Shown: positions 1 through 61,367 of the stretch, piece after piece | How positions within the stretch are numbered: position 1 is the stretch's first letter | Layout of the letters: each line of letters begins with the position of its first letter | DNA from: an uncultured Actinomycetota bacterium | GTDB lineage: Bacteria > Actinomycetota > Actinomycetes > Actinomycetales > Dermatophilaceae | Reading direction: 5' to 3' | DNA length: 64,000 bases | Assembly (NCBI GenBank): GCA_963811825.1 | Contig: CAWESS010000007.1 | Coordinates: forward strand, 30,262-94,261 | Made by a program: the position numbers and the translations under genes | The notes under the pieces: generated by a model | Database searches by the model: none | Told to the model about the DNA's origin: nothing | What the model saw: only the letters and a program-made list of their open reading frames with translations

Positions 1-1640
1 TCACGCGCAGCGGCCGGCTGCAGACCGAGACCCCGGCGTGGCTCGAGGGCACCGACCGGCGAGGGCCTCTACGCCGAGCAGCTCGCCGGCAAGACCCCGT
101 TCGGTGCGCGAGCGGCGCTCGTCGACGCCCTGCGGGCCTCGGGAGACCTCGACGGCGAGCCGACTCCGACCCAGCGCATGGCGAACTTCTACGAGCGCGG
201 CGAGAAGCCGCTCGAGATCGTCACCTCCCGCCAGTGGTACATCAGGAACGGCGGCCGCGACGCCGAGCTCAACGCCGCCCTGATCGCGCGCGGCGAGGAG
301 ATCGACTTCCACCCCGCGTTCATGCGCAGCCGCTACGCGAACTGGGTCGAGCGGCCTCAACGGCGACTGGCTCGTCTCCCGCCAGCGCTTCTTCGGCGTG
401 CCGATCCCGGTCTGGTACCCGCTCGACGCCGACGGCGAGGCCATCTACGACACCCCGATCGTCCCCGAGGAGTCAGCCCTCCCGGTCGACCCGGCGGCCA
501 ACCCTCCGGTCGGCTACACCGAGGACCAGCGCGGCGTGCCCGGTGGCTTCGTCGGCGACCCCGACGTCCTCGACACGTGGGCCACCTCCTCGCTCAGCCC
601 CCAGATCGCGGGTGGGTGGCGCAACGCCGACGGCACCGGGACCGACCCCCTGTTCGAGAAGGTCTTCCCGATGGACGTGCGCCCGCAGGGCCACGACATC
701 ATCCGCACGTGGCTGTTCTCCACCGTCGTGCGCGCCCACTTCGAGCACGGCACCGTGCCGTGGACCGACGCCGCGATCAGCGGCTGGATCCTCGACCCCG
801 ACCGCAAGAAGATGGCCAAGTCGCGCGGCAACGTCGTCACCCCTGAGGACGTCCTCAAGGAGCACAGCGCGGATGCCGTGCGCTACTGGGCGGCCAGCGG
901 TCGCCTCGGCACGGACGCGGCCTACGACACGGGCCAGATCAAGGTCGGCCGCCGCCTGGCCATCAAGGTGCTCAACGCGAGCAAGTTCGCGCTGTCGTTC
1001 GGGTCGGTGGACGGGGACCTCGCCTCTCAGGTCACCGAGCCGATCGACCTGTCGCTGCTCGCCGGCCTGCGCGAGGTCGTCGCCAAGGCCACGGCGGGCT
1101 ACGAGGCCTGGGACTTCACCCGCGCCCTCGAGGTGACCGAGCAGTGGTTCTGGTCGTTCTGCGACGACTACCTCGAGCTCGTCAAGGACCGCGCCTACGG
1201 CGCGCAGGGTGAGCGAGGCCGCGGCATCCGCCCGTGCGACGCTGCGCATCGCGCTCGACGTCGTGCTGCGCCTGTTCGCCCCGATCCTCCCCTACGTCAC
1301 CGAGGAGGTCTGGTCGTGGACCCACGACGGCTCGGTGCACCGCACCACGTGGCCGACCGTCGACGAGGTGCCGGCCGGGGGCGACCCCGCGGTGCTCGGG
1401 TCCGTCGGCGCGGCCCTGGCCGTCGTGCGCAAGGCGAAGTCCGAGGCGAAGGTCGGCATGCGCGCCGAGGTGCCGTCGATGACCCTCGTCGGGCCGGATG
1501 CCGTGCTCGCTCACGTGCGCAGCGCCGAAGGTGACCTCCGCGCGGCCGGCAAGCTCACCGGCATCCTCGAGTTCGCTGACGGCGACGAGGTGTCGGCGCG
1601 GGACATCGAGCTCGTGGCAGTCGCCAAGCCCACCGCCTGA
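1..1640 (+). CDS. valS: Valyl-tRNA ligase, C-terminal part (start outside window; frameshifts near 350 and 1215)
   Basis: Joined frames give SRQWYI..DWLVSRQRFFGVPIPVWY, DTWATSS, QGHDIIRTWLF and KMAKSRGNV (KMSKS-like), followed by an anticodon-binding domain. Confidence 0.95.
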
Positions 1641-1649
1641 GCAACACTC

Positions 1650-1728
1650 GCGACCTCTTGCGATCCACCCACCCCGCTGGCCCGGATCCGGACCGCTTCA
1701 GGTGGGCGGATCGCACAGTCAGGTCGCG
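1650..1728. terminator. Long imperfect inverted repeat between convergent valS and the peptidase-like gene
   Basis: cgcgacctcttgcgatccacccacc (1650-1674) pairs with ggtgggcggatcgcacagtcaggtcgcg (1701-1728). Confidence 0.6.
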
Positions 1729-1730
1729 GG

Positions 1731-2410
1731 TCAGGCGGGGGCGGCACCGGGAGCCACGGCGTACGAGGCGTGCCGCACGGAGCGCAACCCGTTGGGCCGC
1801 ACCGACGATCCACGGCACGTCCCACCCGCTGAGCCCGAGCCTGCCCTCGACGACGGCGTCTCGCCGCAGGTGGCTGACCCGCCCGGTGCCGGGGTCGTAC
1901 ACGTCGAGCATCCGGTCGCCGTCACCCGGCAGCACGAGGACGACGTGGCGCGGCATCGCGGCGTTGCCCACGTAGAGCAACCGCGGGCTCCCCCTCCGCG
2001 ACGACGTCGACGAGGGTGTCGAAGGACCCGATGAGGTCGCCGCGCGAGTCGGTGCGCAGGACGTCGACGGTGTAGAGCGTGCCTCGCCGGGCGGCGCCGT
2101 ACTCCAGCTCGCGTCGGGCCCCCCACGGCGGCGTCCCGAAGCGCCGGGGCCAGGGGACGTTGAGGCGACGGCCCCCGGGGAGCAGGCTGTTGGTGCGCTG
2201 CATGACGATGCGTTCGTACGCCGCGAAGCGCTCACCCGGGGTTGACCCTTCCGGTGAGCCCGGTGGGTTGGGGATGCCGGTGCGCACCCAGGACGCGAAC
2301 TGGGGATCCACGTGCATGCGGGCCACCGTGAGGCACGCAGACCCGCACGTCACCGGGGACTGTTGCACGGGTCCGGTGTCACCGGCGCGCAGACGATAGG
2401 CCATGACCAC
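1731..2410 (-). CDS. Hypothetical protein, standalone C39/papain-like cysteine peptidase (apparent frameshifts near 1982 and 1804)
   Basis: QQSPVTCGSACL at the N-terminus; the corrected frame gives PRHVVLV and LDVYDP, a Cys-His-Asp arrangement. Confidence 0.6.
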
Positions 2411-2452
2411 GACCCCATCGTGTCCGCGAACGAGCGTTCGCGCCAGTTCCGG

Positions 2453-3547
2453 TCAGCTCGACGCGCGCTCGATGAGGTCGACCCGCTGGACGATCCCCCG
2501 GCCGTCGGTTGCGTTCGGGACGTCAGCCCCGCCGGACACACCGTCCACTGCTGCCGACTGACCGGCATCCGACGGTGCATCGCCCACCGGGTGGCCCAGC
2601 TGGCGGAGCAGGAGCCGGGCCATGAGGCGACCCTGGGTCTCGGTGCGCTGGCGCACCGTCGTCAGGCTCGGCTCGGACAGGCGCGCCAGGTCGATGTCGT
2701 CGAAGCCCACGATCGCGACGTCCTCCGGCACCCGACGACCGAGCCGGCGGATGACGCTCATCGCGCCCAGCGCCATCAGGTCGGACGCCACGAAGATGCC
2801 GTCGATGTCCGGCGCCCGGTCGAGGAGCCGAGCCGCCGCCTGCTCCCCCGACCGTGTCGTGAAGTTGCCGAACTCGACGCGAGCCTTGCGGAAGTCGCGC
2901 CCCATGCCCTGGCGGAAGCCCTCGAGCCGGTCGTGCCCGGCAGACATGTCCTCGGGCCCGGCGATCGTGGCGATGCGACGACGACCGCGCAGCCGCAGGT
3001 GCCGTGCGGCCAGCCGGCCGCCCTCGACGTTGTCGTTGTCGACGTAGGGGACCTCGACCCTCGGGTCGAGCGGGCGGCCCCCGATGACGACGGGGATGCC
3101 GCTCTCGACCAGCTTCTCGGCGAGCCGGTGCCCACCGTGTTCGGAGATCAGCAGCACGCCGTCGGTGTGCCCCCCGGACAGGTAGCGCGACAGCGAGGAG
3201 ACCTGGTCGTCCGACTGGGTCATCGACAGGGACAGCTGAACCCCGGCGTGGGTGAGCTCGTGGCTGACGCCGCGCACGATCTGGGCGAAGAACGGGTCAC
3301 CGAAGACCCGGTCGTCGCTCTCGGCCGCGACGAGGGTGACGATGTCCGAGCGCCGGGTCATCAGCGCACGGGCAGCAGCGTTCGGCACGTAGTCGAGGTC
3401 GTCGACGGCCCGGTTGACGGCCTCGCGCAACGCAGGGTCCACCGAGAGGGAACCGTTGACGACCCGGGACACCGTTGCCCGCGACACTCCGGCGTGGCGG
3501 GCCACCTGCTCGAGCGTCGGCCTGCGCCGCCGAGCCGGCGTGGTCAT
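2453..3547 (-). CDS. LacI-family transcriptional regulator
   Basis: PTLEQVARHAGVSRATVSRVVNG HTH, a periplasmic-binding-like domain, and VGFDD...PSLTTVRQ. Confidence 0.95.
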   Translation of the reverse strand: MTTPARRRRPTLEQVARHAGVSRATVSRVVNGSLSVDPALREAVNRAVDDLDYVPNAAARALMTRRSDIVTLVAAESDDRVFGDPFFAQIVRGVSHELTHAGVQLSLSMTQSDDQVSSLSRYLSGGHTDGVLLISEHGGHRLAEKLVESGIPVVIGGRPLDPRVEVPYVDNDNVEGGRLAARHLRLRGRRRIATIAGPEDMSAGHDRLEGFRQGMGRDFRKARVEFGNFTTRSGEQAAARLLDRAPDIDGIFVASDLMALGAMSVIRRLGRRVPEDVAIVGFDDIDLARLSEPSLTTVRQRTETQGRLMARLLLRQLGHPVGDAPSDAGQSAAVDGVSGGADVPNATDGRGIVQRVDLIERASS

Positions 3548-3548
3548 C

Positions 3549-4835
3549 TCAGGCAGAACGCTTTCGGGGGGCGCGCTTGCGGCCGGGGTCGTCGGTGTGG
3601 CGCACGATCGTGGGGAGAACGTTCTTGCCCACGACCTCGCTCGTGATGACGACCTTGGCGATCTCGTCGTCGCTCGGCACGTCGAACATCGTGGGGAGCA
3701 GGACCTCCTCCATGATCGCGCGCAGTCCCCGAGCGCCGGTGCCGCGAGCCAGCGCCTGGTCGGCCACTGCCGCGACGGCATCCTCGGTGAACTCGAGCAC
3801 GACCCCGTCGATCTCGAACATCTTCTGGTACTGCTTGATGAGGGCGTTGCGGGGCTCGGTGAGGATCCGCACGAGCGCGTCGTTGTCGAGCGGCGCCACG
3901 GTGGTGATGACCGGCACCCGGCCGATGAACTCGGGGATGAGCCCGAACTTCATGAGGTCCTCGGGCATGACCTCGTGGATGCTCTGCGCGAGGTCCTTCG
4001 GGGTGTGCAGCTCGGAGCCGAAGCCCAGGCCCTTCTTGCCGTTGCGCGACTCGATGAGCTTCTCGAGCCCGGCGAACGCCCCACCCACGATGAACAGGAC
4101 GTTCGTCGTGTCGATCTGGATGAACTCCTGGTGGGGGTGCTTGCGACCACCCTGCGGCGGCACCGACGCGGTCGTGCCCTCGAGGATCTTCAGCAGGGCC
4201 TGCTGCACCCCTTCGCCGGAGACGTCCCGGGTGATGCTCGGGTTCTCGGACTTGCGGGCGATCTTGTCGACCTCGTCGATGTAGATGATGCCCGTCTCGG
4301 CCTTCTTGACGTCGTAGTCGGCGGCCTGGATGAGCTTGAGGAGGATGTTCTCGACGTCCTCACCGACGTAGCCGGCCTCGGTCAGGGCCGTCGCGTCGGC
4401 GATGGCGAACGGGACGTTGAGCATCTTGGCCAGCGTCTGTGCCAGGTAGGTCTTGCCGCAGCCGGTGGGGCCGATGAGCAGGATGTTCGACTTGGAGATG
4501 TCGACGTGGTCGGGGTCCTTCTTGCCCAGCGCCGACTCGCCCGCCTGGATGCGCTTGTAGTGGTTGTAGACCGCCACGGCCAGGGCCTTCTTCGCGACGT
4601 CCTGGCCGATGACGTACTGCTCGAGGAAGTCGAAGATCTCGCGGGGCTTGGGCAGGTCGTCGAGCCCGAGCTCGCTGGACTCCGCCAGCTCTTCCTCGAT
4701 GATCTCGTTGCACAGGTCGATGCACTCGTCACAGATGTAGACGCCCGGCCCCGCGATGAGCTTCTTGACCTGCTTCTGGGACTTGCCGCAGAAGGAACAC
4801 TTCAGCAGGTCACCCGACTCTCCGACACGTGCCAC
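3549..4835 (-). CDS. clpX: ATP-dependent Clp protease ATP-binding subunit ClpX
   Basis: Zn finger [26 protein letters not shown], Walker [23 protein letters not shown]. Confidence 0.99.
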
Positions 4836-4979: not shown

Positions 4980-5019
4980 CGGATGCCGTCCGCTCACGGT
5001 GAGCGGACGGCATCCGGGG
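4980..5019. repeat. REP-like palindrome, copy 1
   Basis: Perfect 17-bp arms cggatgccgtccgctca / tgagcggacggcatccg, a 3-nt loop and a G tail; near-identical copy at 41791. Confidence 0.9.
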
Positions 5020-5726: not shown

Positions 5727-6350
5727 TCAGGGGGTCACGGGGTTGTCGACCCCGGGACCAGCCATGGTCGCCTTGGTGATGACCTGGTCGACGAAGCCGT
5801 ACTCCTTGGCCTCCTCGGCGGTGAACCACCGGTCGCGGTCGGAGTCCATCTCGATCTGGTCGATGCTCTGCCCCGTGTGCCGGGCGATGAGCTCGGCCAT
5901 CTGCTTCTTGATGTGCAGCAGCTGCTCGGCCTGGATCTTGATGTCGGATGCCGTGCCGCCGATGCCGCCGCTGGGCTGGTGCATCATGACCCGCGCGTGC
6001 GGGGTGGCGTAGCGCTTGCCCGGCTCGCCGGCCGACAGCAGGAACTGGCCCATGGAGGCGGCCATGCCCATCGCCACGGTCGCGACGTCGTTGGGGATCC
6101 ACTGCATGACGTCGAAGATCGCCATGCCCGCGGTGACGGAGCCACCCGGGGAGTTGATGTAGAGCCAGATGTCCTTGGTGGGGTCCTCGGCGGCGAGCAG
6201 GAGCATCTGGGCACAGATCGCGTTCGCGTTGTCGTCGCGCACGTCGGACCCGAGGAAGATGATCCGCTCCTTGAGGAGACGGTTGTAGATGTGGTCGTCC
6301 AGCCCGGCCTGGGGGCCCGGGCCGGCGGCGACGATCTCGGTGCTGGTCAC
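5727..6350 (-). CDS. clpP1: Clp protease proteolytic subunit ClpP1
   Basis: [46 protein letters not shown]. Confidence 0.97.
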
Positions 6351-6453: not shown

Positions 6454-6476
6454 ACGCCGGATGCCGGGCACGCCCG

Positions 6477-8420: not shown

Positions 8421-9506
8421 ATGACCCCCACTCGTCAAACCCGATCCACGCGGCGCCGCCCGACGCTGCGTGACGTCGCGCGGCGTGCCGGGGTGTCGAC
8501 GTCGACGGCATCCCTGGTGTTCAGCGGCAAGGGGCCGGTCGCGGAGGCGACCGCCCAGCGGGTGCGCGACGCGGCATCCGAGCTGTCGTACGCCGGCCCC
8601 GACCCGCTCGCGTCGTCGCTGCGCCAGGGGCGGGTGGGCACCGTCGCCGTCGTCGTCGAGGGGCCGCTGCGGCACGCGTTCCACGACCCCTTCGCCCTGG
8701 CCATCCTCGACGGCCTGGCCGAGGAGCTCGATGCCGCCGACCGCTCGATGCTGCTCATCGCCCAGCCGCTCGAGGACCCCGAGCGGGCCGTGGCCCAGCT
8801 GGCCACCCAGGCCGTCGACGCGGCGGTCTTCCCGCTGTGTGGCAACCGCGACAACCCGGTCGTCGACCACCTGCTGGCTCGCGGCGTGCCGCTCATCGGC
8901 AGCGGAGCCCCGGTCCACCCCCAGGTGGCGCACGTGCTCACCGACGAGTTCACCGCCATGACGCTCACGACCCGCCACGTCCTCGAGCTCGGCCACGAAC
9001 GCGTCGCCCACCTCTGCATGATGCTCAGCCCGCACTCCCCCACCGCCCCGGTCACCGAGGACGACGTCACCCACGCGTCCTATCCGGATGCCGTGGGGCG
9101 GCTCGCGGGGTTCCGCTCGCTCGCCGGGGTGGGCGCCCCCGTGGTGCAGGCCCACGACCTCACGGTGGAGGCCGGGGAGGATGCCGCCCGGATCCTGCTC
9201 GACGTCCCTGCGGCGGTGCGGCCGACGGCGATCGTGGCGCAGGCCGACCTGCTCGCCGCCGGCGCCATCCGCGCCGCCGAGGCGCTCGGCCTGCGCGTCC
9301 CCGAGGACCTCACGGTCACCGGGTTCGACGGGGTCGACCTGCCGTGGCTGGACCACGTGCTGACGACGGTCGACCAGCCCGGCGCCGAGAAGGGCCGCCG
9401 CATGGGCCGGTTGGTGCGGCTCGCCCTCGAGGGTCTCGCGGTGTCCGACGAGCCCTACCCCGTGACGCTTCGGGTCGGCACGACGAGCGCCCCGCCCCCG
9501 GCCTGA
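8421..9506 (+). CDS. LacI-family transcriptional regulator, divergent from the MFS gene
   Basis: PTLRDVARRAGVSTSTASLVFSG HTH; LTVTGFDG...LTTVDQP. Confidence 0.95.
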   Translation: MTPTRQTRSTRRRPTLRDVARRAGVSTSTASLVFSGKGPVAEATAQRVRDAASELSYAGPDPLASSLRQGRVGTVAVVVEGPLRHAFHDPFALAILDGLAEELDAADRSMLLIAQPLEDPERAVAQLATQAVDAAVFPLCGNRDNPVVDHLLARGVPLIGSGAPVHPQVAHVLTDEFTAMTLTTRHVLELGHERVAHLCMMLSPHSPTAPVTEDDVTHASYPDAVGRLAGFRSLAGVGAPVVQAHDLTVEAGEDAARILLDVPAAVRPTAIVAQADLLAAGAIRAAEALGLRVPEDLTVTGFDGVDLPWLDHVLTTVDQPGAEKGRRMGRLVRLALEGLAVSDEPYPVTLRVGTTSAPPPA

Positions 9507-10912: not shown

Positions 10913-11164
10913 TTCGGGCACTCCACAACCATGGGGGATTCGGGGGACATTCGCTCGGATGCCGTGCTGCCGGCCGCGAGCGGACCGGCACCTTCCAGCG
11001 GCGCGCGAGTGCGCGGCATCCGGACTGGCACCGAGGGTCCATGTTAGCGGCCGGTGTCGGGGCCACCCAATCCGCCGGCAACGTGGCCCCCCTCGGGGCC
11101 CGACGATGGGTAACGTCCCGTCCAGCGCGCCCGGCAGCCGGCGCCCCAGCGACGAAGGAACCCG

Positions 11165-14374: not shown

Positions 14375-14484
14375 ACACCTCGTGGCAGGTGACCACGAGT
14401 GCAGCGGCTAGCCTAGTGGCCGCGCTCGCGGGAACCGAAATCCGACGTCGACCTCGTGGTCGTCGGATGCCGTCCGGCGGGCTG

Positions 14485-33652: not shown

Positions 33653-33659
33653 CCCGGGT

Positions 33660-46486: not shown

Positions 46487-48169
<1,683 letters not shown>

Positions 48170-52374: not shown

Positions 52375-52935
52375 ATGCGACTGTTCGTGGCGGTGGAACC
52401 TGATGTCGAGGTGGTGGAGCATCTCGACGAGTTTCTCGAGGTGCGCCGGGAGGCGGACCCGGACCTGCGATGGAGCTCGCCGGCGCAGTGGCACGTCACC
52501 CTGGCCTTCATGGGGGCCGCACCCGAGCGAGTGGTGGACGACCTCATCGAGTCCGTCAGCGCCGCAGCCGCGCGGTGTTCGCCCGTGGTGCTCGGCATCT
52601 CGGGTGGCGGCTGCTTCCCGGACGTGTCCCGCGCGAGGGTCTTGTGGGCAGGGCTGAGCGGGGGCGACGGTCTGGCGCCCCTCGCCCGCGGCGTGCGGGC
52701 TGCGGCGGCTGTCGCCGGGGGCGCGCCGGAGGGTGGGCCGTTCCGGCCGCACGTCACGCTGGGCCGCTTCGGGCATCCGACCGAGGCGACGCGGTGGGTG
52801 CGGGTGCTGGACTCGTACGCGGGGCCGACGTGGACGGCATCCGAGATCACCGTCGTGGCCTCGCACCTCCCCCGGGAACGCGGCCACCGTCCGCGACACG
52901 AGGTCCTCGCCCGCGCTCGGATGGGCCGCGACTGA
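52375..52935 (+). CDS. thpR: RNA 2',3'-cyclic phosphodiesterase (2H family)
   Basis: MRLFVAV, WHVTLAF and PHVTLGR, two HxT motifs. Confidence 0.92.
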   Translation: MRLFVAVEPDVEVVEHLDEFLEVRREADPDLRWSSPAQWHVTLAFMGAAPERVVDDLIESVSAAAARCSPVVLGISGGGCFPDVSRARVLWAGLSGGDGLAPLARGVRAAAAVAGGAPEGGPFRPHVTLGRFGHPTEATRWVRVLDSYAGPTWTASEITVVASHLPRERGHRPRHEVLARARMGRD

Positions 52936-54165: not shown

Positions 54166-54619
54166 ATGGCCACGAAGAAGAGCGACAGCGGCGGGTTCAG
54201 CGCCGACGAGCGCGCGGCGATGAAGGCGCGCGCGGCCGAGCTGCGCGCCGAGGGCAAGAAGGGCGCCAAGCGTGCTGACGGTCTCCAGGCGATCCTCGAC
54301 CGCATTGCCGAGATGGACCCGGCGGACCGCGCCCTCGCCGAGCGCGTACACGCGCGTCGTGACCGAGACCGCACCAGACCTCATGCCGAAGACCTGGTAC
54401 GGGATGCCGGCCTACGCCGACTCCGACGGGAAGGTCGTCGCCTTCTTCCAGGATGCCGGGAAGTTCAAGTACCGCTACTGCACCCTGGGCTTCCAGGACG
54501 CCGCGAACCTCGACGACGGTGACATGTGGCCGGCCTCCTTCGCCCTCGTGGGGTGGAGCCCTGCGGTCGAGAAGAAGGTCATCGCCCTCGTGAAGGCGGC
54601 GATCAGGCCACAGGACTGA
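54166..54619 (+). CDS. DUF1801/YdhG-like protein (frameshift near 54355)
   Basis: GFSADERAAMKARAAEL, KTWYGMPAY, FFQDAGKFKYRYCTLGF, MWPASFAL. Confidence 0.88.
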
Positions 54620-55832
54620 TCTGCTCGGCGAGCTGGCGCGACCGTCGCAACGCCATCTCGGCGAGTGCGGCCGCGACGTCCGGGACGACCGAGTCGTCGA
54701 ACGCCGCGCGGGGTGAGTGGTTGTCCTCGGCGTCAGCCGGGTCCCCGAGGGCGCAGGCGCTCACGTTGAGGTAGGCGCCCGGCACCTCGTCCAGGACGAA
54801 CGACATGTCCTCCGACCCGGCCTCGGGGTTGACCATGTCCGCCCACCGGTCGGCACCGAAGAGGTCGACCACCACGCCCTGGGCGAAGGCGAACTCCTCG
54901 ACGTCGTTGACCGTCACCGGGTAGCCGTTGCCGATGGTGACCTCCGCGGTCATCCCGTGGGCCTGCGCGACGTGCTCGGCAACCCGGGTCACCGCGTCGT
55001 GGGCCCGGGCGCGGTTCTCGGCCGAGAAGGTGCGCAACGTCGCCTCGACGTACGCGTCGTCCGGGATGATGTTGTCCTTCGTTCCCGCGGCGATCCGGCC
55101 CACCGTGAGCACCACCGGGTCCCACACGCTGAACTGGCGGGTGACCGCGCTCTGGTAGGCCAGCACGATCTCGCACGCCACCGGCACGGGGTCCTTCGCA
55201 CGATCGGGCGCTGACCCGTGGCCGCCCACACCGCGCACCACGACGTGGACCTCGTCGGCCGCCGCCATGAGGGTGCCCGGGCGGCCGAACCACACCCCGA
55301 GTGGATGGTCCGCGGAGTACACGTGGACGGCGTACGCGGCGTCCACCCGCCGACCAGCCGCCTCGAGCAGCCCCTCACGGATCATCGGCTCGGCACCGCC
55401 GGGACCTTCCTCCGCGGGCTGGAACATCAGCACGACGTCGCCGACGAGCTCGTCACGCAGCTCGTGCAGGATGCGCGCCGCGCCGACGAGGCCCGCCATG
55501 TGCAGGTCGTGCCCGCACGCGTGCATCAGCCCCGGGCGGGTCGAGGCGTAGTCGACGTCGACCTCCTCGGCGACCGGCAGTGCATCCATGTCGCCGCGCA
55601 GCAGCACCACCGGCCGCTCCCCCGTCACCGGCGACCGCCCTCGCAGGACAGCGACGACCGAGCTCAGCGAGTCCCCCAGCGTCACCTCGAGGTCGAGCCC
55701 GGACAACGCCTCGAGCACCGCCGCCTGGGTGTCCGGCAGGTGCAGGCCCAACTCCGGGATGCCGTGCAGTCGCCTCCGTAGGTCGACCAGCTCGGGTGCG
55801 AGGCGGGCGGCGATGGCAAGGGTGTCGGTCAC
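54603..55832 (-). CDS. M20-family amidohydrolase
   Basis: LRGDMDALP, MHACGHD, FQPAEEG, GGHGSAP, GSEDMS, NHSP. Confidence 0.95.
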   Translation of the reverse strand: MTDTLAIAARLAPELVDLRRRLHGIPELGLHLPDTQAAVLEALSGLDLEVTLGDSLSSVVAVLRGRSPVTGERPVVLLRGDMDALPVAEEVDVDYASTRPGLMHACGHDLHMAGLVGAARILHELRDELVGDVVLMFQPAEEGPGGAEPMIREGLLEAAGRRVDAAYAVHVYSADHPLGVWFGRPGTLMAAADEVHVVVRGVGGHGSAPDRAKDPVPVACEIVLAYQSAVTRQFSVWDPVVLTVGRIAAGTKDNIIPDDAYVEATLRTFSAENRARAHDAVTRVAEHVAQAHGMTAEVTIGNGYPVTVNDVEEFAFAQGVVVDLFGADRWADMVNPEAGSEDMSFVLDEVPGAYLNVSACALGDPADAEDNHSPRAAFDDSVVPDVAAALAEMALRRSRQLAEQISPVA

Positions 55833-55885: not shown

Positions 55886-57055
55886 TCAGGCGGCGTGCAG
55901 GCCGATGAACTCGGCCCGTCGATCGCGAAGAGCCAGCAACAGCTCGTGTTCCTGCTCGATGGCGTGGGCGTCCGCAGCCCGGTGAAGCATTCGGCGACGG
56001 AGCAGCGCCAGCTCGCTCGCGGCATCCTGGAAGGCCCGCATCGCCTTCAGGCCGTCGCGCCCGGTGTTGGCCCTGGCCCAGGCGCGGGCCTCGCGTCGTT
56101 GCGGCATCGAGGAGAGCATGGCGACCTCGGCGGGCGAGAGCCACCCGACGTCGGCGTAGGGCCGCAGGAACTGCCCGATGAGCCGACCCTCCTCACGGCG
56201 GGCCCACCCGACGAACGCGAGGAACGCGAAGAAGATGGGCACCTGGACGAAGAGGTAGACCACGACCATGCCCTGCCCGCCGGACACGGCGGCGAGGTTC
56301 CACAGGCCGTGGCTCAGCACTGCGAGCAGGAACCCCACCACGGGGGCGAACACTCGCGGCATCCACGACCTGCTCGTCGCAGCGACACCGATCCCGATGC
56401 CGGTCAGGATGGTGAACATCGGGTGGGCGAACGGCGACAGGATGCACCGGGCGATGAACGTGCCCGTCAGCAGCTCGCTGCCGCCGTCGGTCCACGCGAC
56501 GGCGAGGTACTGGATGTTCTCGGTGAAGGCGAAGCCGGCGGCGCAGATGCCTGCGTAGACCATGCCGTCGGTGATGCCATCGAACTCGTTGCGGAGGAAC
56601 CACCACACGAACAGGACGAACACCCCCTTCGCAGCCTCCTCCACGAACGGGGCCACGAGGACGGCGGTCGTCGTCAGCGCGGCGTCCGCGTCAGCGGTCG
56701 ACATCGCCTCGATGAGGGCGATGGCGGAGGAGTTGAGGACGGCCGCGACAGCCGCCGCCACGAGCGCTCCCCAGAGGAAGGCGCCGACGAGCAGCCGGTT
56801 CGGCTCCGACTCGAAGCGGTCGAGCCACAAGAAGGTGGGGATGACGATGCCGAGCGGCACGACGGCGGCGGCCAGCGCCAGCAGGGCGGTCTGCACCCCG
56901 AAGGCGGCGCCGAAGTACGCGGCGACGACGATCGCGACCAGCAGGAACCCCAGCCCGGCGACACCTGTCAGGACCCACCCGCGCAGTGCGGGGCGCGTGG
57001 TCGGGTCCCGACGCAGCCGCGGCGCGGGCCGTTGCGTCGTGACGTCGCCGCTCAT
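55886..57055 (-). CDS. prsW: PrsW-family intramembrane metalloprotease
   Basis: [32 protein letters not shown]. Confidence 0.92.
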
Positions 57056-57815: not shown

Positions 57816-57875
57816 CAGGTACGATGGTTCGCGCTGCGGGCGCAAGGGATCCACGGATGCCGTCGCGCCCGCCGT

Positions 57876-58060: not shown

Positions 58061-58702
58061 ATGCAGTCACGCCGCTTCGCCACCGTCGTCACGATCGTCA
58101 TCGTGGTGGCGTTCTTCCTCGTTGCCATCGCCCCCGCGTTCGCCTCTCCGGCGCCGGGGACCCTCCCGCTGCACGCGCGGCTGCTCTCCTCGGCGCCTGC
58201 GGACGGGGCCACCCTCGACACCGTGGACCAGGTCGTGCTGACGTTCAACGAGGACGTCAACCCCGACTTCGTCGCCGTGCGTGTCGCCGGGCCCGCCGGT
58301 GGCGAGGCCGAGGGCGCCCCGACCGTCGACGGCCCCACGGTGACGCAGCCCCTCTCGGCACCGTTGGAGGCAGGCGAGCACACCGTGACCTACCGGGTGG
58401 TGAGCAACGACGGGCACCCGATCTCCGGAACCCTGACGTTCACGACGACGGCATCGGCGGTCGCCCCCTCACCCACCCCGAGCACTGCCGAACCGACCCC
58501 GTCGGAGGCCAGCTCCACGGCATCCGCGACGCCCACGCCGTCCGAGTCCCTGACGCCCGCGCCAGAACCCGCTGTCGAGGAAGAAGGGACGTCCCCATGG
58601 GTCGGTGTCGTGATCGCCCTGGGGGTGGCCGCGCTCGCCGCCATCGGGGGCGGCGCGTGGACTCGTCGCCGCGCGCGCCACTCGGACGGCGAACAGGTCT
58701 GA
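58061..58702 (+). CDS. copC: CopC copper-resistance protein with signal peptide and C-terminal TM anchor
   Basis: HARLLSSAPADG, LTFNE, YRVVSNDGHPISG. Confidence 0.9.
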   Translation: MQSRRFATVVTIVIVVAFFLVAIAPAFASPAPGTLPLHARLLSSAPADGATLDTVDQVVLTFNEDVNPDFVAVRVAGPAGGEAEGAPTVDGPTVTQPLSAPLEAGEHTVTYRVVSNDGHPISGTLTFTTTASAVAPSPTPSTAEPTPSEASSTASATPTPSESLTPAPEPAVEEEGTSPWVGVVIALGVAALAAIGGGAWTRRRARHSDGEQV

Positions 58703-59766: not shown

Positions 59767-59850
59767 GGTGGCTCCTCGTCATGTCGTCTGGCTGTGGCAC
59801 AAACCTACCCCGCCGGGTGGTCGGTCGAGGCTGTCGCTCCCAACAGGGGT

Positions 59851-59935
59851 TGGTGCGCAAGGCGGGACTCGAACCCGCACACCCGAAGGCACCAGAACCT
59901 AAATCTGGCGCGTCTACCAATTCCGCCACTCGCGC
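59851..59935 (-). tRNA. tRNA-Leu(TAG)
   Basis: CCAGA-TTTAGGT-TCTGG; long variable arm; CCA encoded. Confidence 0.96.
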
Positions 59936-59964
59936 GCGGGCGACAGCCTACGACGGCCCGGTGC

Positions 59965-60603
59965 TCAGGTGCTGAGGAATTCTCGCAGGACAGGTTCGAG
60001 CGCCCGAAAGGCATTGCCCCGGTGGGAGATCGCATTCTTCTCCGCATCCGCGTGCTCAGCGAGCGTTCGCTGCTGCCCCGTGGGGACGAAGACCGGGTCA
60101 TAGCCGAAGCCGTTGGTGCCGCGCGGCCCGCGCACGATCGAACCCTCGACACGTCCTTCGACCCCGTGCACGCGACCGTCCGGCATGGCGAGCACGGCCG
60201 CGCACACGAACGCCGCGGCGCGGTGCTCGTCCGGCACGTCACCGATCTGTTCGAGGAGCAGGTTGAGGTTCGCGCGGTCGATGTCGGCGCGCCCGGCACC
60301 CGGCCCCGCAGAAGATCCCGACCAGCGTGCCGAGAACACACCTGGGCACCCGCCGAGGACGTCGACGGCCAGGCCCGAGTCGTCGGCCACCGCCGGCAGG
60401 CCGGTGGCCTCGGCAAGAGCGACCGCCTTCAGCCGGGCGTTCCCGAAGAAGGTCACCTCGGTCTCGGCGACATCCGGAGCACCCTCGACGTCGCCAGCGC
60501 CGATGATCTCGAGGTCGAGGTCCGCCACGAGACCCGCAAGAATCTGTCCGAGTTCGTGGACCTTGTGCTCATTGCGAGTGGCGAGCACGAGCCGCCGGCT
60601 CAT
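59965..60603 (-). CDS. rdgB: Non-canonical purine NTP pyrophosphatase
   Basis: LATRNEHK, ADDSGL, GFGYDP, SHRG. Confidence 0.96.
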   Translation of the reverse strand: MSRRLVLATRNEHKVHELGQILAGLVADLDLEIIGAGDVEGAPDVAETEVTFFGNARLKAVALAEATGLPAVADDSGLAVDVLGGCPGVFSARWSGSSAGPGAGRADIDRANLNLLLEQIGDVPDEHRAAAFVCAAVLAMPDGRVHGVEGRVEGSIVRGPRGTNGFGYDPVFVPTGQQRTLAEHADAEKNAISHRGNAFRALEPVLREFLST

Positions 60604-60608
60604 GCCAC

Positions 60609-61367
60609 TCACGCCTGACGCTCGCGCGGGGTCTCCTCGAGCGCGGCCTGCTGCACCATGGTGAGCTCGGCACAGCCGACCGTCGCGAGGTCGAGGAGAT
60701 GGCCGAGAACCGCGCGGTCGAACGGGTCCCCCTCCGCCGTGCCCTGCACCTCGACGAAGCGACCGTCCCCGGTCATCACGACGTTCATGTCGGTCTGTGC
60801 GGTGGAGTCCTCCGGGTAGTCCAGGTCGAGCACCGGGCGACCCTTGACGAGCCCGACGCTCACCGCGGCGATCGACCCGGTGAGTGGCTGCGCCGCTGGG
60901 GCGATCAGGCCCTTGGCGCGCGCGTCGGCCACGGCATCCGCCAAGGCCACCCAGGCGCCGGTGATCGCGGCCGTGCGGGTGCCGCCATCGGCCTGGAGCA
61001 CGTCGCAGTCCAGGACGATCGTGTTCTCGCCGAGGGCCTTGGTGTCGATGACCGCCCGCAGGCTGCGGCCGACGAGGCGGCTGATCTCGTGGGTGCGGCC
61101 ACCGACCTTCCCGCGTCGCGACTCGCGGTCGGATCGCGTGTTCGTCGACCTGGGCAGCATCTCGTACTCCGCGGTGACCCATCCGGTACCGCGGCCCTTG
61201 AGCCAGCGGGGAACGCCCGCCGTGAAGGATGCCGCGCACAGGACACGGGTGCGGCCGAACTCGACGAGGACACTGCCTTCCGCGTGGTCCAGCCAGTTGC
61301 GCGTGATGCGCACCTCGCGAAGTTGGTCAGGGGCGCGGCCGTCGTGGCGAACAGACTCGTGGGACAT
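60609..61367 (-). CDS. rph: Ribonuclease PH
   Basis: [28 protein letters not shown]. Confidence 0.98.

What the first reader, a model, noticed from the sequence alone, without database searches (positions are those of the whole stretch)
871..60939. Highly iterated non-palindromic motif GGATGCCGT/ACGGCATCC written into genes on both strands (uptake-sequence-like or HIP-like)
Seen in sequence: about 42 exact 9-mer copies by hand count, 23 on + and 19 on -. Plus-strand starts include 871, 1496, 5946, 9086, 10957, 14465, 22034, 23045, 26170, 28238, 28629, 29760, 37506, 40650, 43504, 51029 and 57855. Minus-strand starts include 8505, 11591, 16384, 19903, 24713, 27127, 50445, 52834, 58517 and 60931. 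A simple 72% GC model predicts about 1 copy in 64 kb. In the coding copies I checked, it reads as GAT-GCC-GT (Asp-Ala-Val) or ACG-GCA-TCC (Thr-Ala-Ser), using GAT and GCA where the surrounding genes prefer GAC and GCC/GCG. This holds even at the conserved GTASD of ClpP1, so protein sequence alone does not explain it. It also forms the REP hairpin arms and sits about 20 bp upstream of both tRNA-Pro and tRNA-His. Established: this pattern is typical of DNA uptake sequences (Neisseria, Pasteurellaceae), Chi-like sites and cyanobacterial HIP1. Inference: an uptake, recombination or methylation-directed repair signal that I do not know to be described for this lineage.
Basis: partly seen in the sequence, partly recalled or inferred. 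Interest (0 to 1): 0.82.

Follow-up and report, generated by a model that had tools for sequence, protein, structure and literature searches.

The report
Uptake-sequence-like 8-mer saturating actinobacterial genomes
A short DNA word, GGATGCCG(T), is written about once per 800 bases into genes and spacers on both strands of this actinobacterial chromosome, overriding codon preference and sometimes the protein sequence. It behaves like the DNA uptake sequences of Neisseria and Haemophilus, which I did not find described for any Gram-positive bacterium in the papers searched.

Summary
GGATGCCGT occurs 44 times (24+/20-), against about 1 expected. The core is the 8-mer GGATGCCG, with 79 copies (40+/39-) against about 9 expected.

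A shuffle that keeps protein, codon usage and dinucleotides gives 12-15 genic 8-mers; 61 are observed. The word sits in three main reading frames, sense and antisense equally. It uses rare codons only where they complete it (GAT is 8% of Asp overall, 72% in that context). Relatives without the motif have other bases there, and sometimes other amino acids.

It is not local. The same word is enriched in relatives (Ornithinibacter-like, PepN 85-99% identical), in unlinked Ornithinibacter contigs and in Microbacterium. Knoellia carries a one-letter dialect, GTATGCCG. Oryzobacter, Phycicoccus and about 75 other actinobacterial loci lack it.

It is unskewed, whereas a second octamer in the same window (GGGGGAGT) is 0:9 polar. 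That excludes a Chi- or KOPS-like role.

Best reading (about 0.4): a self-DNA tag for uptake or exchange, spread by recombination-coupled drive. Function is untested. HIP1-like modification/repair and a protein-binding array remain open.

The parts
871..879 (+). 9-mer GGATGCCGT copy
   Evidence: sense G-GAT-GCC-G (Asp-Ala) in valS; L002 has GCGGACGCGGTG
1222..1229 (-). 8-mer GGATGCCG copy
   Evidence: in valS region, frame uncertain
1496..1504 (+). 9-mer copy
   Evidence: sense Asp-Ala frame, valS 3' part
1559..1566 (-). 8-mer copy
   Evidence: antisense C-GGC-ATC-C (Gly-Ile); relatives encode Gly-Ala/Gly-Ser
2272..2279 (+). 8-mer copy
   Evidence: Gly-Ile frame; relatives Gly-Glu
2563..2570 (-). 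8-mer copy
   Evidence: sense Asp-Ala frame, LacI-family regulator
3094..3101 (+). 8-mer copy
   Evidence: antisense Gly-Ile frame, LacI-family regulator
3775..3783 (-). 9-mer copy
   Evidence: sense Asp-Ala-Val in clpX; relatives DEAI/DEAV
4980..5016 (.). REP-like hairpin whose arms are two inverted 9-mer copies (4981-4989 +, 5007-5015 -) around GTCCGCTCA-CGG-TGAGCGGAC
   Evidence: between clpP2 stop and clpX start; 17-bp stem, dG -48 kcal/mol, z -8; absent from L002 at this spacer
5946..5954 (+). 9-mer copy
   Evidence: antisense ACG-GCA-TCC-GAC = TASD of clpP1; L002 GCC, L003 and L327 GCG
6459..6466 (+). 8-mer copy
   Evidence: spacer upstream of clpP1
8505..8513 (-). 9-mer copy
   Evidence: antisense Thr-Ala-Ser frame; four relatives keep TAS with GCG/GCC
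8572..8579 (-). 8-mer copy
   Evidence: Ala-Ser frame; conserved in L203
9086..9094 (+). 9-mer copy
   Evidence: sense Pro-Asp-Ala-Val; L326/L327 CCGGACGCCG
9179..9186 (+). 8-mer copy
   Evidence: sense Asp-Ala frame
10957..10965 (+). 9-mer copy, first of an inverted pair 57 nt apart
   Evidence: divergent spacer between tig and M43 peptidase; conserved in L202, L203, L205; L206 has CGTATGCCGT here
11014..11021 (-). 8-mer copy, second of the pair
   Evidence: conserved in L202, L203, L206
11591..11599 (-). 9-mer copy
   Evidence: antisense Thr-Ala-Ser-Asp, M43 peptidase
12313..12320 (-). 8-mer copy
   Evidence: sense Asp-Ala, trkA
12337..12344 (+). 8-mer copy
   Evidence: antisense Gly-Ile, trkA
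14465..14473 (+). 9-mer copy 11 nt upstream of tRNA-Pro
   Evidence: conserved in L201, L202, L203, L206
16384..16392 (-). 9-mer copy
   Evidence: sense Asp-Ala-Val, PP2C/SpoIIE phosphatase
16878..16885 (+). 8-mer copy
   Evidence: Gly-Ile frame, rpiB; conserved in all relatives
17275..17282 (-). 8-mer copy
   Evidence: sense Glu-Asp-Ala-Ala; outgroups Asp-Gly-Val-Ala
19903..19911 (-). 9-mer copy
   Evidence: pepN; L205 and Knoellia L328 carry ACGGCATAC (GT dialect) at the same site
20787..20794 (-). 8-mer copy
   Evidence: mscS region, frame uncertain; conserved in relatives
21118..21125 (-). 8-mer copy
   Evidence: Gly-Ile frame, mscS
22034..22042 (+). 9-mer copy
   Evidence: sense Val-Asp-Ala-Val; L327 GTCGACGCCGTG, same peptide
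23045..23053 (+). 9-mer copy
   Evidence: sense Pro-Asp-Ala-Val; outgroups Pro-Asp-Ala-Glu
23961..23968 (-). 8-mer copy
   Evidence: Gly-Ile frame, GDPD gene
24601..24608 (-). 8-mer copy
   Evidence: frame uncertain
24713..24721 (-). 9-mer copy
   Evidence: sense Ser-Asp-Ala-Val; L326 TCCGACGCCGTC, same peptide
24975..24982 (+). 8-mer copy
   Evidence: Gly-Ile frame made of preferred codons, also present in L326/L327
25803..25811 (-). 9-mer copy
   Evidence: region without a clean frame
26170..26178 (+). 9-mer copy
   Evidence: beta-lactamase-family region, frame uncertain
27040..27048 (-). 9-mer copy
   Evidence: Asn-Gly-Ile-Arg; outgroups Asp-Gly-Val-Arg
27127..27135 (-). 9-mer copy
27705..27712 (-). 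8-mer copy
28238..28246 (+). 9-mer copy
   Evidence: spacer upstream of RecQ-like helicase; conserved in L202
28557..28564 (-). 8-mer copy
   Evidence: Gly-Ile frame, helicase
28629..28637 (+). 9-mer copy
   Evidence: sense Ala-Asp-Ala-Val; L327 GAGGACGCCGTC
29760..29768 (+). 9-mer copy
   Evidence: sense Pro-Asp-Ala-Val, helicase
32317..32324 (+). 8-mer copy
   Evidence: rare frame GG-ATG-CCG
33700..33708 (-). 9-mer copy
33813..33821 (+). 9-mer copy
34703..34711 (-). 9-mer copy
   Evidence: sense Asp-Ala-Val, treZ-like
35341..35349 (+). 9-mer copy
   Evidence: antisense Thr-Ala-Ser
37058..37065 (-). 8-mer copy
   Evidence: sense Asp-Ala, treY-like
37506..37514 (+). 9-mer copy
   Evidence: antisense Thr-Ala-Ser-Asp
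40300..40307 (-). 8-mer copy
   Evidence: frame uncertain
40471..40479 (-). 9-mer copy
   Evidence: frame uncertain
40650..40658 (+). 9-mer copy
   Evidence: sense Trp-Asp-Ala-Val, SDR gene
41357..41364 (+). 8-mer copy
   Evidence: sense Asp-Ala, YhhN gene
41791..41827 (.). second REP-like hairpin; arms are inverted 9-mer copies (41792-41800 +, 41818-41826 -)
   Evidence: between convergent YhhN and acyl-CoA dehydrogenase genes; 16-bp stem, dG -41 kcal/mol; 92% identical to the first hairpin; same element in metagenome contig L127
42719..42726 (+). 8-mer copy
   Evidence: Gly-Ile frame
43504..43512 (+). 9-mer copy
   Evidence: sense Asp-Ala-Val, TetR regulator
43961..43969 (+). 9-mer copy
   Evidence: sense Asp-Ala-Val
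45204..45212 (+). 9-mer copy
   Evidence: antisense Thr-Ala-Ser
46531..46538 (-). 8-mer copy
   Evidence: sense Asp-Ala, ABC-F ATPase
46837..46844 (+). 8-mer copy
   Evidence: Gly-Ile frame
47953..47960 (+). 8-mer copy
   Evidence: Gly-Ile frame
49178..49186 (-). 9-mer copy
   Evidence: frame uncertain
50445..50453 (-). 9-mer copy
   Evidence: sense Asp-Ala-Val, dynamin-like GTPase
51029..51037 (+). 9-mer copy
   Evidence: rare frame
51725..51733 (-). 9-mer copy
   Evidence: sense Asp-Ala-Val
52834..52842 (-). 9-mer copy
   Evidence: antisense Thr-Ala-Ser, ligT
54402..54409 (+). 8-mer copy
   Evidence: frame uncertain
54451..54458 (+). 8-mer copy
   Evidence: sense Asp-Ala
55757..55765 (+). 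9-mer copy
   Evidence: Gly-Ile frame, M20 peptidase
56020..56027 (-). 8-mer copy
   Evidence: sense Asp-Ala, PrsW protease
56357..56364 (-). 8-mer copy
   Evidence: rare frame
57855..57863 (+). 9-mer copy 13 nt upstream of tRNA-His
58517..58525 (-). 9-mer copy
   Evidence: frame uncertain
60931..60939 (-). 9-mer copy
   Evidence: sense Asp-Ala-Val, rph
61227..61234 (+). 8-mer copy
   Evidence: antisense Ala-Ser, rph
61559..61566 (+). 8-mer copy
   Evidence: Gly-Ile frame
61775..61782 (-). 8-mer copy
   Evidence: sense Asp-Ala

Best explanation
c-GGATGCCG-t is a genome-wide identity tag read on double-stranded DNA by a sequence-specific protein of the cell's DNA-exchange machinery. The most likely reader is the DNA-binding step of natural transformation, as for the DUS of Neisseriaceae and the USS of Pasteurellaceae.

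Proposed mechanism (inferred):
- Fragments that carry the word are taken up or transferred preferentially and then recombined into the chromosome.
- New copies that arise by point mutation are therefore over-transmitted (molecular drive).
- The word accumulates to about one per 0.8 kb wherever the protein can tolerate it: three permissive reading frames, spacers, and inverted pairs at gene ends.

Shown here:
- The enrichment is real.
- It acts at the DNA level.
- It does not depend on strand or orientation.
- It arose by convergent substitutions.
- Sites persist among relatives more than control sites do.
- Dialects exist.
- The word is found in several genera.

For: (1) Enrichment survives every null model. 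There are 79 8-mers against 9.4 expected under an order-3 Markov model. Genic copies number 61, against 8.9 under synonymous shuffle and 12-14.6 when protein, codon usage and dinucleotides are all kept.

(2) It is a DNA-level signal, not an RNA or protein one. Sense and antisense copies are about 35:34 and fall in three main frames. Rare codons are used only where they complete the word: GAT 72% against 8% overall, GCA 52% against 6% overall.

(3) It was built by convergent change. At orthologous sites, motif-free relatives differ from the word at 1-5 positions. At position 4 they carry C (36 cases), G (14) or A (3), so several mutation types converge on T. In several clear cases the motif-encoded residues themselves differ (Gly-Ala to Gly-Ile, Asp-Gly-Val to Glu-Asp-Ala, Asp-Gly-Val to Asn-Gly-Ile). 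In 48 of 60 comparisons the surrounding four-codon peptide also differs, though that count includes ordinary flanking divergence.

(4) There is no replication polarity. The count is 40+:39-, and a 75% skew is rejected at p=3e-6. In the same window GGGGGAGT is 0:9, and a further 0:24 in co-oriented syntenic relatives.

(5) Density and spacing resemble DUS/USS. Mean spacing is 781 nt, CV 0.85, largest gap 2.8 kb. The 9-mer is about twice as dense outside called genes.

(6) Two inverted pairs form 16-17 bp stems, one in the clpP2-clpX spacer just downstream of clpP2 and one between two convergent gene ends. This is the arrangement reported for DUS at terminators (PMC3630211).

(7) The enrichment is neither local nor strain-specific.
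- Syntenic relatives carry 0.9-1.3 copies per kb.
- An unlinked Ornithinibacter contig (L108) is enriched.
- Five Microbacterium contigs are enriched, as is M. lacticum L329, which was chosen without reference to the motif (14 observed against 3.3 expected).

(8) Dialects exist. Knoellia has GTATGCCG, 18 against 0.9 and 14 against 0.7 expected. GG and GT forms replace each other at orthologous sites. The flank preferences are shared across groups: C or G before the word, T after it.

(9) Motif sites persist better than control 8-mers among relatives: 77% against 48%, 50% against 35%, 47% against 28% and 56% against 26%.

(10) A lytic Microbacterium phage shows neither excess nor avoidance, 2 observed against 1.9 expected.

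(11) A Hi-C study reported uptake of a non-conjugative plasmid by a Microbacterium in mixed culture (PMC10257627).
Against: No uptake, transformation, receptor or competence gene was tested or seen. The window holds only housekeeping genes.

I did not find natural transformation reported for Ornithinibacter or Knoellia; no search targeted those genera.

The identical word occurs in two families (Microbacteriaceae and Intrasporangiaceae), with motif-free genera between them (Oryzobacter, Phycicoccus, Curtobacterium, Arthrobacter). This distribution is patchier than the vertical DUS pattern. It could point to a mobile determinant such as a modification system.

Most spacer copies lie on the promoter side of genes (upstream of tRNA-Pro, tRNA-His, clpP1 and the helicase, and in the tig/peptidase divergent spacer) rather than in terminators.

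Density is the same in well-shared and poorly shared DNA, 1.04 against 0.97 per kb (small sample). DUS concentrates in core genes.

The excess conservation of sites fits site-level selection as well as it fits drive.
Confidence: 0.4

Rival explanations
1. HIP1-like: the word is the target of a sequence-specific DNA modification or mismatch-correcting system. That system would be a methyltransferase, possibly paired with a Vsr-like nicking enzyme, which restores near-matches to the full word. The determinant could be mobile, which would explain the patchy distribution.
For: The enrichment has the same general signature as cyanobacterial HIP1: about 1 per kb, in all frames, and conserved. The distribution is patchy across two families, with an identical word in both. 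The word contains the GGATG and GCATC cores typical of type IIS recognition sites (my knowledge, not tested). HIP1 itself is now linked to methylases and to transformation (bioRxiv 10.64898/2026.06.24.733823).
Against: The word is non-palindromic and 8-10 nt long, which is longer than usual methyltransferase specificities. No DNA methyltransferase or nuclease gene was seen in the window or in the fetched loci. Substitutions converge on the word from every base at several positions, so a single-mismatch repair bias is not enough. A lytic Microbacterium phage shows no avoidance.
Confidence: 0.2
2. Binding-site array for an abundant sequence-specific chromosomal protein, such as a nucleoid organiser, a condensin loader or a global regulator. 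Under this reading each site is kept by ordinary selection.
For: Sites are retained among relatives 1.4-2.2 times better than control 8-mers. Spacer copies upstream of tRNA-Pro and in the tig/peptidase spacer are conserved across species. Spacing is slightly more even than random, with CV 0.85 and no gap above 2.8 kb. Density is equal in shared and poorly shared DNA.
Against: I know of no actinobacterial nucleoid protein with an 8-10 nt asymmetric site at this density (my knowledge). Closely related genera with the same genes and synteny do without it, which is hard to reconcile with an essential architectural role. Selection at roughly 4,000-5,000 sites per genome (extrapolated), each worth very little, is weak compared with drive.
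Confidence: 0.15
3. Donor-side transfer signal. The word would be read by a conjugation-type DNA translocase or nickase, comparable to the 8-bp TraB recognition sequences of Streptomyces plasmids or the scattered bom sites of mycobacterial distributive conjugal transfer. Chromosomal segments carrying the word would then be exported preferentially, and drive would operate through mating.
For: The population-genetic signature is the same as in the best explanation. Actinobacteria use double-strand DNA translocases that read 8-mers (my knowledge). In the Streptomyces loci fetched here, the TraB-type word GACCCGGA occurs at 0.21 per kb.
Against: TraB sites work as clustered direct repeats, and no clustering is seen here. 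The Streptomyces word is skewed 90:41, unlike this one. No conjugation gene lies in the window or the fetched loci. TraB-type elements are typical of mycelial actinomycetes rather than Micrococcales (my knowledge).
Confidence: 0.1
4. Chi-like or KOPS-like polar signal for a recombination nuclease or for the FtsK translocase.
For: It is a short over-represented word that also lies inside genes.
Against: The count is 40:39 in a window lying on a single replichore, and a 75% skew is rejected at p=3e-6. The internal control GGGGGAGT is 0:9 in the window and a further 0:24 in co-oriented relatives.
Confidence: 0.02
5. By-product of protein sequence, codon-pair bias, or chance.
For: One of the three frames (C-GGC-ATC-C, Gly-Ile) is built from preferred codons and also occurs in motif-free relatives. 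This explains a background of roughly 2-7 copies per 21 kb.
Against: The excess is 4- to 14-fold over shuffles that preserve protein, codon usage and dinucleotides. Rare codons are used only in motif context. Spacer copies exist. About 75 other high-GC actinobacterial loci have a median of 0.05 copies per kb, against 1.23 here.
Confidence: 0.01

Closest known systems
DNA uptake sequence (DUS) of Neisseriaceae, AT-DUS 5'-ATGCCGTCTGAA-3' and its dialects (PMC3630211)
   Same: Both are non-palindromic words of about 10 nt at roughly one per kb on both strands. Both are common inside genes in permissive frames and form inverted pairs with stem-loops at gene ends. Related genera differ by one-letter dialects. 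Copies are kept at orthologous sites. The two words even share the letters ATGCCGT(C).
   Different: The CTG core and the 3' A that define every DUS dialect are absent: ATGCCGTCTG occurs 0 times in the window. The shared heptamer is best treated as coincidence. The host is a high-GC Gram-positive with no type IV pilus minor pilin ComP known. The distribution is patchy across two families rather than vertical within one. Uptake bias is untested.
Uptake signal sequence (USS) of Pasteurellaceae (9-mer core AAGTGCGGT)
   Same: Both have a 9-mer core with weaker flanking preferences, a density of about 1 per kb and no strand bias. Both prefer reading frames that encode tolerable tripeptides and leave a measurable imprint on protein sequences.
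   Different: The sequence is unrelated. No AT-rich flanking segments are seen. The phylum and cell envelope differ. The receptor is unknown in both cases.
HIP1 (GCGATCGC) of cyanobacteria
   Same: Both are octamers at about 1 per kb across genes and spacers. Both are conserved at orthologous sites and have lineage variants. Function was long unknown for HIP1, which is now discussed as a transformation or uptake signal.
   Different: HIP1 is a palindrome and is recognised by known methylases. The present word is asymmetric, and no methylase is linked to it.
Chi sites and FtsK-orienting polar sequences (KOPS)
   Same: Both are over-represented 8-mers that are tolerated inside genes.
   Different: Those are co-oriented with replication. 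This word is 40:39, whereas a separate octamer in the same window (GGGGGAGT, 0:9) behaves like a polar sequence.
REP/BIME-type extragenic palindromes
   Same: Two copies of a 37-nt perfect or near-perfect hairpin lie in spacers, and a third lies on a metagenome contig.
   Different: About 85% of motif copies are bare 8-9-mers inside genes with no palindrome. The hairpins use the word as their arms rather than the word being a fragment of a REP.

Membership tests
Neisseriaceae DUS | 12-mer with invariant CTG at +6..+8 and A at +10 | tested here: not met
   The word ends at GCCGT(S). ATGCCGTCTG occurs 0 times and GCCGTCTG twice in 64 kb. The feature is defined in PMC3630211.
Neisseriaceae DUS | About one copy per kb on both strands, intragenic and intergenic | tested here: met
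   79 copies in 64 kb, 40+/39-; 61 lie in called genes and 18 outside.
Neisseriaceae DUS | Inverted pairs forming stem-loops at gene ends | tested here: met
   Two pairs with 16-17 bp stems, at 4980-5016 (clpP2-clpX spacer, downstream of clpP2) and at 41791-41827 (between convergent gene ends). There are only two, and other spacer copies lie on the promoter side.
Neisseriaceae DUS | Dialects that follow phylogeny | tested here: inconclusive
   Knoellia has GTATGCCG and the window clade and Microbacterium have GGATGCCG. Intervening genera lack any form, so the pattern is patchy.
Neisseriaceae DUS | Read by the minor pilin ComP of a type IV pilus | not testable with these tools
   No whole genome of a motif-bearing strain could be searched, and no such gene lies in the window.
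DNA uptake sequences as a functional class (DUS, USS) | DNA carrying the word is bound, taken up and recombined preferentially | not testable with these tools
   This needs uptake or transformation assays.
DNA uptake sequences as a functional class (DUS, USS) | The word overrides codon preference and imprints the proteome | tested here: met
   Context-specific GAT and GCA use. Amino-acid changes at motif sites relative to outgroups.
DNA uptake sequences as a functional class (DUS, USS) | Enriched in core DNA and poor in recently acquired DNA | tested here: inconclusive
   1.04 per kb in well-shared DNA against 0.97 per kb in poorly shared DNA, based on only 18.5 kb of the latter.
HIP1-type iterated palindromes | Palindromic octamer | tested here: not met
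   GGATGCCG is not its own reverse complement.
HIP1-type iterated palindromes | Cognate DNA methyltransferase(s) acting on the word | not testable with these tools
   No methylome data are available. No DNA methyltransferase was found in the window.
Chi / KOPS polar motifs | Strong co-orientation with replication | tested here: not met
   40:39, against the control octamer at 0:9 in the same window.
REP/BIME elements | Extragenic imperfect palindromes of 20-40 nt | tested here: not met
   Only 2 hairpins (4 of the 79 copies form their arms); 61 copies lie inside called genes without a partner arm.
TraB recognition sequences (clt/clc) | 8-mers acting as clusters of closely spaced direct repeats | tested here: not met
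   Spacing is near-random, with a median of 610 nt and no direct-repeat clusters.

The most novel reading that the evidence does not exclude
This would be the first sequence-specific DNA uptake or exchange signal in Gram-positive bacteria. A self-recognition word with dialects would be shared by Microbacterium and by part of the Intrasporangiaceae (the Ornithinibacter group, and Knoellia with its dialect). It would be read by a receptor unrelated to the Neisseria pilin ComP. That would imply frequent, cryptic, conspecific-biased natural transformation in common soil and activated-sludge actinobacteria.
Probability: 0.35. Interest if true: 0.92.

Novelty: new variant of a known kind. Interest (0 to 1): 0.8.

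Why it matters
Sequence-biased DNA uptake is known experimentally from only two proteobacterial families, and the origin of such biases is a long-running debate. An independent case in another phylum would give that debate a second, unrelated test system. This case has a simple 8-mer, a one-letter dialect, and motif-free sister genera to serve as natural controls.

It would also make the question of whether non-mycelial actinobacteria exchange chromosomal DNA in nature directly testable. Microbacterium is easy to grow and has a large phage collection.

There are practical uses too. The word is a strong taxonomic marker for binning metagenomic contigs. Adding it to constructs might improve the genetic tractability of these genera.

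Whatever the mechanism, it is a clear example of a DNA-level force rewriting codons and amino acids in housekeeping genes such as clpP, clpX, valS and pepN.

Tried and rejected
- Exact-protein look-ups of the window's clpX and acyl-CoA dehydrogenase found nothing. The source genome is not on record under my gene starts.
- I laid Logan metagenome contigs on the window. The result was thousands of fragments from mixed relatives, and the output was too truncated for per-site analysis, so I abandoned it.
- A viral-contig scan for inverted motif pairs gave two apparently enriched contigs, and neither held up. L234 is host DNA next to an integrase. L267 is a Faecalibacterium phage whose complete relative has only 8 copies in 35 kb.
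- A plasmid search with a Microbacterium protein gave nothing useful.
- An Rfam scan found only the six tRNAs and no family for the hairpins.
- Maximal-order Markov statistics were uninformative, because the word inflates its own sub-words. I used an order-3 model instead.
- Comparing core with poorly shared DNA showed no difference.
- Literature searches for the word alone returned primer matches in unrelated papers. Searches combining it with actinobacterial terms, or uptake sequences with actinobacteria, returned nothing linking the two.
- I considered and rejected RNA-level roles (pause, terminator or rut site), because sense and antisense copies are equal. I rejected a promoter element because most copies are intragenic. 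I rejected a single context-specific mutation type because the ancestral bases at each position are diverse.

Full report
**1. Observation**

GGATGCCGT occurs 44 times in the 64-kb window (24 on +, 20 on -). Dinucleotide-preserving shuffles give 1.12 +/- 1.17 copies, with a maximum of 5.

Aligning the flanks and counting sub-words shows the invariant core to be the 8-mer GGATGCCG. It has 79 copies, against about 9.4 expected under an order-3 Markov model. Position 9 is T in 44 copies, G in 16, C in 14 and A in 5. C precedes the word in 33 of the 44 9-mers.

One-letter variants of the 9-mer at its first eight positions are rare, 0-5 copies each. The related 8-mer GTATGCCG has 11 copies against 0.5 expected.

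The window is 71% G+C.

**2. It is not a coding artefact**

I called 56 genes from codon statistics, covering 82% of the window.

| Null model | Genic 9-mers (31 observed) | Genic 8-mers (61 observed) |
|---|---|---|
| Synonymous codons permuted within genes | 1.46 +/- 1.08 | 8.9 +/- 2.5 |
| Protein, codon usage and all dinucleotides kept | 2.2-3.0 | 12-14.6 |

These nulls are conservative, because the rare codons contributed by the motif stay in the pool.

The word lies in three main frames (approximate tallies, since a dozen frames are uncertain):
- Sense G-GAT-GCC-G (Asp-Ala): about 32 copies.
- Antisense C-GGC-ATC-C (Gly-Ile): about 18 copies.
- Antisense CG-GCA-TCC (Ala-Ser): about 13 copies.
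- Other frames: 6 copies.
- No clean local frame (spacer or uncertain): about 10 copies.

Sense and antisense copies are about 35:34, so the signal is read on DNA and not on mRNA.

Rare codons appear only where they complete the word:
- GAT is 8% of Asp codons overall, but 72% (29/40) of Asp in G|Asp-Ala|G context and 7-17% in other Asp-Ala contexts.
- GCA is 6% of Ala codons overall, but 52% in NCG-Ala-Ser context and 5% elsewhere.
- 27 of the window's 97 GAT codons lie inside the word.

The 9-mer is about twice as dense outside called genes: 13 copies in 11.7 kb against 31 in 52.3 kb.

**3. How the copies arose**

The window comes from an Intrasporangiaceae/Dermatophilaceae actinobacterium. 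Its PepN is 88% identical to that of Fodinibacter luteus, about 85% to Ornithinibacter MAGs, about 80% to Phycicoccus and about 74% to Knoellia.

I aligned syntenic loci from motif-free relatives and examined the orthologous sites. The relatives were a MAG with 92% ClpX identity (L002), Knoellia, Oryzobacter and Phycicoccus. At those sites they carry near-matches built from preferred codons. Examples are GCG-GAC-GCG-GTG for the window's GCG-GAT-GCC-GTG, and ACG-GCC/GCG-TCC-GAC for the window's ACG-GCA-TCC-GAC in ClpP1.

The outgroup sequences differ from the word at 1-5 positions. At position 4 they have C (36 cases), G (14) or A (3), so different mutation types converge on the same letter. 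In several clear cases the motif-encoded residues themselves differ (Gly-Ala to Gly-Ile, Asp-Gly-Val to Glu-Asp-Ala, Asp-Gly-Val to Asn-Gly-Ile). In 48 of 60 comparisons the surrounding four-codon peptide also differs, though that count includes ordinary flanking divergence.

A single context-specific mutational bias cannot produce this. It requires selection or transmission bias for the whole word.

**4. No polarity**

The 8-mer is 40+:39-, interleaved along the whole window. An E. coli-Chi-like 75% skew is rejected at p=3e-6.

By luck the window carries its own control. The octamer GGGGGAGT (9 copies against 0.7 expected) is 0 on + and 9 on -, inside genes of both orientations. In the syntenic relatives oriented like the window it is a further 0:24, and in the oppositely oriented Knoellia locus it is 2:0.

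The window therefore lies on one replichore and does contain a polar, KOPS-like word. GGATGCCG is not one. The Chi/KOPS option is excluded.

**5. Spacing and spacer anatomy**

Mean spacing is 781 nt, median 610 and CV 0.85, with no gap above 2.8 kb. This is close to random and slightly more even.

Two spacers hold a near-identical 37-nt hairpin: CGGATGCCGTCCGCTCA-CGG-TGAGCGGACGGCATCCG.
- The first lies between clpP2 and clpX.
- The second lies between two convergent genes.
- Their stems are 17 and 16 bp, with dG -48 and -41 kcal/mol and no U-tract.
- The same element occurs on metagenome contig L127.

Other spacer copies lie on the promoter side of genes:
- 11 nt upstream of tRNA-Pro and 13 nt upstream of tRNA-His.
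- Upstream of clpP1 and of a RecQ-like helicase.
- As an inverted pair 57 nt apart in the tig / M43-peptidase divergent spacer.

**6. It is not local to the window**

Loci fetched through PepN homologues were chosen without reference to the motif, and they show the same enrichment:

| Locus | PepN identity to window | 8-mer copies | Expected |
|---|---|---|---|
| L201 | 99% | 10 in 9.3 kb | 1.0 |
| L202 | 93% | 25 | 3.5 |
| L203 | 90% | 20 | 2.0 |
| L205 | 86% | 20 | 3.3 |
| L206 (Ornithinibacter MAG) | 85% | 17 | 3.0 |

A metagenome scan for inverted pairs returned contigs that do not overlap the window and carry many further copies. Exact-protein cluster look-ups and a SecY search identify these contigs:
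- L108 is Ornithinibacter.
- L119, L141, L095, L136 and L120 are Microbacterium (M. testaceum group and relatives).
- L184 remained unnamed.

M. lacticum (L329) was fetched through SecY only. It has 14 copies against 3.3 expected.

Flank preferences are the same in all groups: C before the word, T after it, then G or C.

**7. Dialect and patchiness**

Both Knoellia loci are enriched for GTATGCCG instead, with 18 copies against 0.9 expected and 14 against 0.7. T is again preferred after the word.

The window clade keeps GTATGCCG as a minor form, with 11 copies in the window and 18 in its relatives. At orthologous sites the two forms replace each other. Site 10957 reads CGTATGCCGT in L206, and site 19904 reads ACGGCATAC in L205 and in Knoellia.

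The following are not enriched, or only 2-3 fold through the preferred-codon Gly-Ile frame:
- Oryzobacter sp. R7.
- Phycicoccus jejuensis.
- The ClpX-92% MAG (L002).
- An Ornithinimicrobium MAG.
- Curtobacterium and the Arthrobacter group.
- About 70 other actinobacterial clpX loci, whose median is 0.05 copies per kb against 1.23 in the window.

The distribution is therefore patchy. It spans two families of Micrococcales, with motif-free genera in between.

**8. Persistence**

Among motif-bearing relatives, window sites are retained more often than control 8-mers from the same alignments:

| Locus | Motif sites retained | Control 8-mers retained |
|---|---|---|
| L202 | 20/26 (77%) | 48% |
| L203 | 9/18 (50%) | 35% |
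| L205 | 9/19 (47%) | 28% |
| L206 | 10/18 (56%) | 26% |

The relatives are not independent, so this is a trend rather than a formal test. The spacer sites upstream of tRNA-Pro and in the tig spacer are among the retained ones.

**9. What was not found**

The window and the fetched loci encode housekeeping functions only. These include valS, clpX, clpP1 and clpP2, tig, trkAH, pepN, trehalose and glycogen enzymes, an ABC-F ATPase, an SSB paralogue, dynamin-like GTPases, rph, rdgB and murI. No DNA methyltransferase, restriction, competence or conjugation gene was seen.

Rfam finds only tRNAs.

A lytic Microbacterium phage (Count, 52.5% G+C) has 2 copies against 1.9 expected. It shows no enrichment and no avoidance, though its host's motif status is unknown.

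Density is equal in well-shared and poorly shared DNA (small sample).

**10. Interpretation**

The known class that combines all of the following is the DNA uptake sequence (DUS/USS):
- An asymmetric word of 8-10 nt.
- About one copy per kb.
- No strand or replichore bias.
- Occupation of permissive reading frames against codon preference.
- An imprint on proteins.
- Inverted pairs at gene ends.
- One-letter dialects between related genera.

These hallmarks are described in PMC3630211. HIP1 shares most of them but is palindromic, and it is itself now being proposed as a transformation signal.

I therefore commit to a self-DNA tag for uptake or exchange that spreads by transmission bias plus homologous recombination. 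My confidence is about 0.4.

The steps from "driven or selected DNA word" (shown) to "uptake signal" (inferred) are not demonstrated. Three observations pull toward rivals, which I score separately:
- The patchy distribution across two families.
- The promoter-side position of most spacer copies.
- The equal density in shared and poorly shared DNA.

The rivals are a mobile modification/repair system (0.2), a protein-binding array (0.15) and a conjugal donor-side signal (0.1).

The word shares ATGCCGT(C) with the Neisseria AT-DUS, ATGCCGTCTGAA. It lacks the CTG core that defines all DUS dialects. It is not a member of that family, and I treat the shared letters as coincidence.

**11. Novelty**

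Full-text searches found no paper linking the word to any actinobacterium, and no uptake-type sequence reported in Actinobacteria. Searches for the word alone returned only primer matches in unrelated papers.

A Hi-C study reported that a Microbacterium took up a non-conjugative plasmid in mixed culture (PMC10257627). Competence in that genus is therefore plausible.

I rate this a new variant of a known kind. It is of high interest because it is directly testable in a tractable genus, with natural negative controls.

Noticed in passing
window 9034, 12610, 15785, 18401, 21895, 25016, 33537, 47034, 63554 (all on the - strand); also L201-L206, L326-L328: The octamer GGGGGAGT has 9 copies against 0.7 expected and is completely polar. 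It is 0:9 in the window, a further 0:24 in co-oriented syntenic relatives, and 2:0 in the reversed Knoellia locus. It lies inside genes of either orientation. It occurs in co-oriented Intrasporangiaceae relatives both with and without GGATGCCG. It is a candidate FtsK-orienting (KOPS/AIMS-like) word for this family.
   Followed up: partly
L003 and L328 (Knoellia loci): Knoellia genomes are saturated with GTATGCCG(T), at 14 and 18 copies per roughly 21 kb against fewer than 1 expected. This is a one-letter dialect of the window's word.
   Followed up: partly
L119, L141, L095, L136, L120 (metagenome contigs) and L329 (M. lacticum): Microbacterium, in a different family (Microbacteriaceae), carries the identical GGATGCCG enrichment with the same flank preferences.
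   Followed up: partly
window 25742-25787 and 25990-26035: A 46-nt direct repeat (85% identical, GG(C/T)TCACC...CAACTTTGGGATGGATC(G/A)CGTGGTG(A/G)GCCA) is present twice, 248 nt apart. It lies in a 1.8-kb stretch where I could call no clean gene. Relatives encode a beta-lactamase-family/DUF7586 protein there.
   Followed up: no
window about 1140-1200 (valS), 12805-13100 (trkH 3' part), 20560-21379 (mscS), 33526-33900 (treZ-like), 36033-36400 (treY-like): Several conserved genes change reading frame or end in Arg/Pro-rich nonsense in my translations. This suggests indel errors in the assembly or real frameshifts. It makes a few motif frame assignments uncertain.
   Followed up: no
window 14544-14611 and 53770-53843: There are two further long hairpins. 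One lies directly after tRNA-Pro; its arms contain CCGGATGCGC/GCGCATCCGG, a near-match to the word. The other has 36-nt arms containing GTCCGCTC/GAGCGGAC, the same inner stem as the two motif hairpins.
   Followed up: no
33 Streptomyces/Kitasatospora clpX loci (L012...L080): GACCCGGA, the 8-mer I recall as the TraB recognition sequence of plasmid pSVH1, occurs at 0.21 per kb. It is skewed 90:41 relative to clpX orientation.
   Followed up: no
window 28390-30387 (+): This RecQ-like DEAD/Helicase_C protein has a roughly 350-residue C-terminal extension. The end of that extension (…LLVDDLVSSRWTLTVAGRALRQAG…) looks to me like a ComF/phosphoribosyltransferase-type motif. Pfam gave no hit there at 1e-5.
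   Followed up: partly
L326 (Oryzobacter) and L002: The motif-free relatives show a moderate excess of AGGCCGAG (18 against 3.2 expected, and 13 against 3.0). It may be only codon-driven, and I did not examine it.
   Followed up: no
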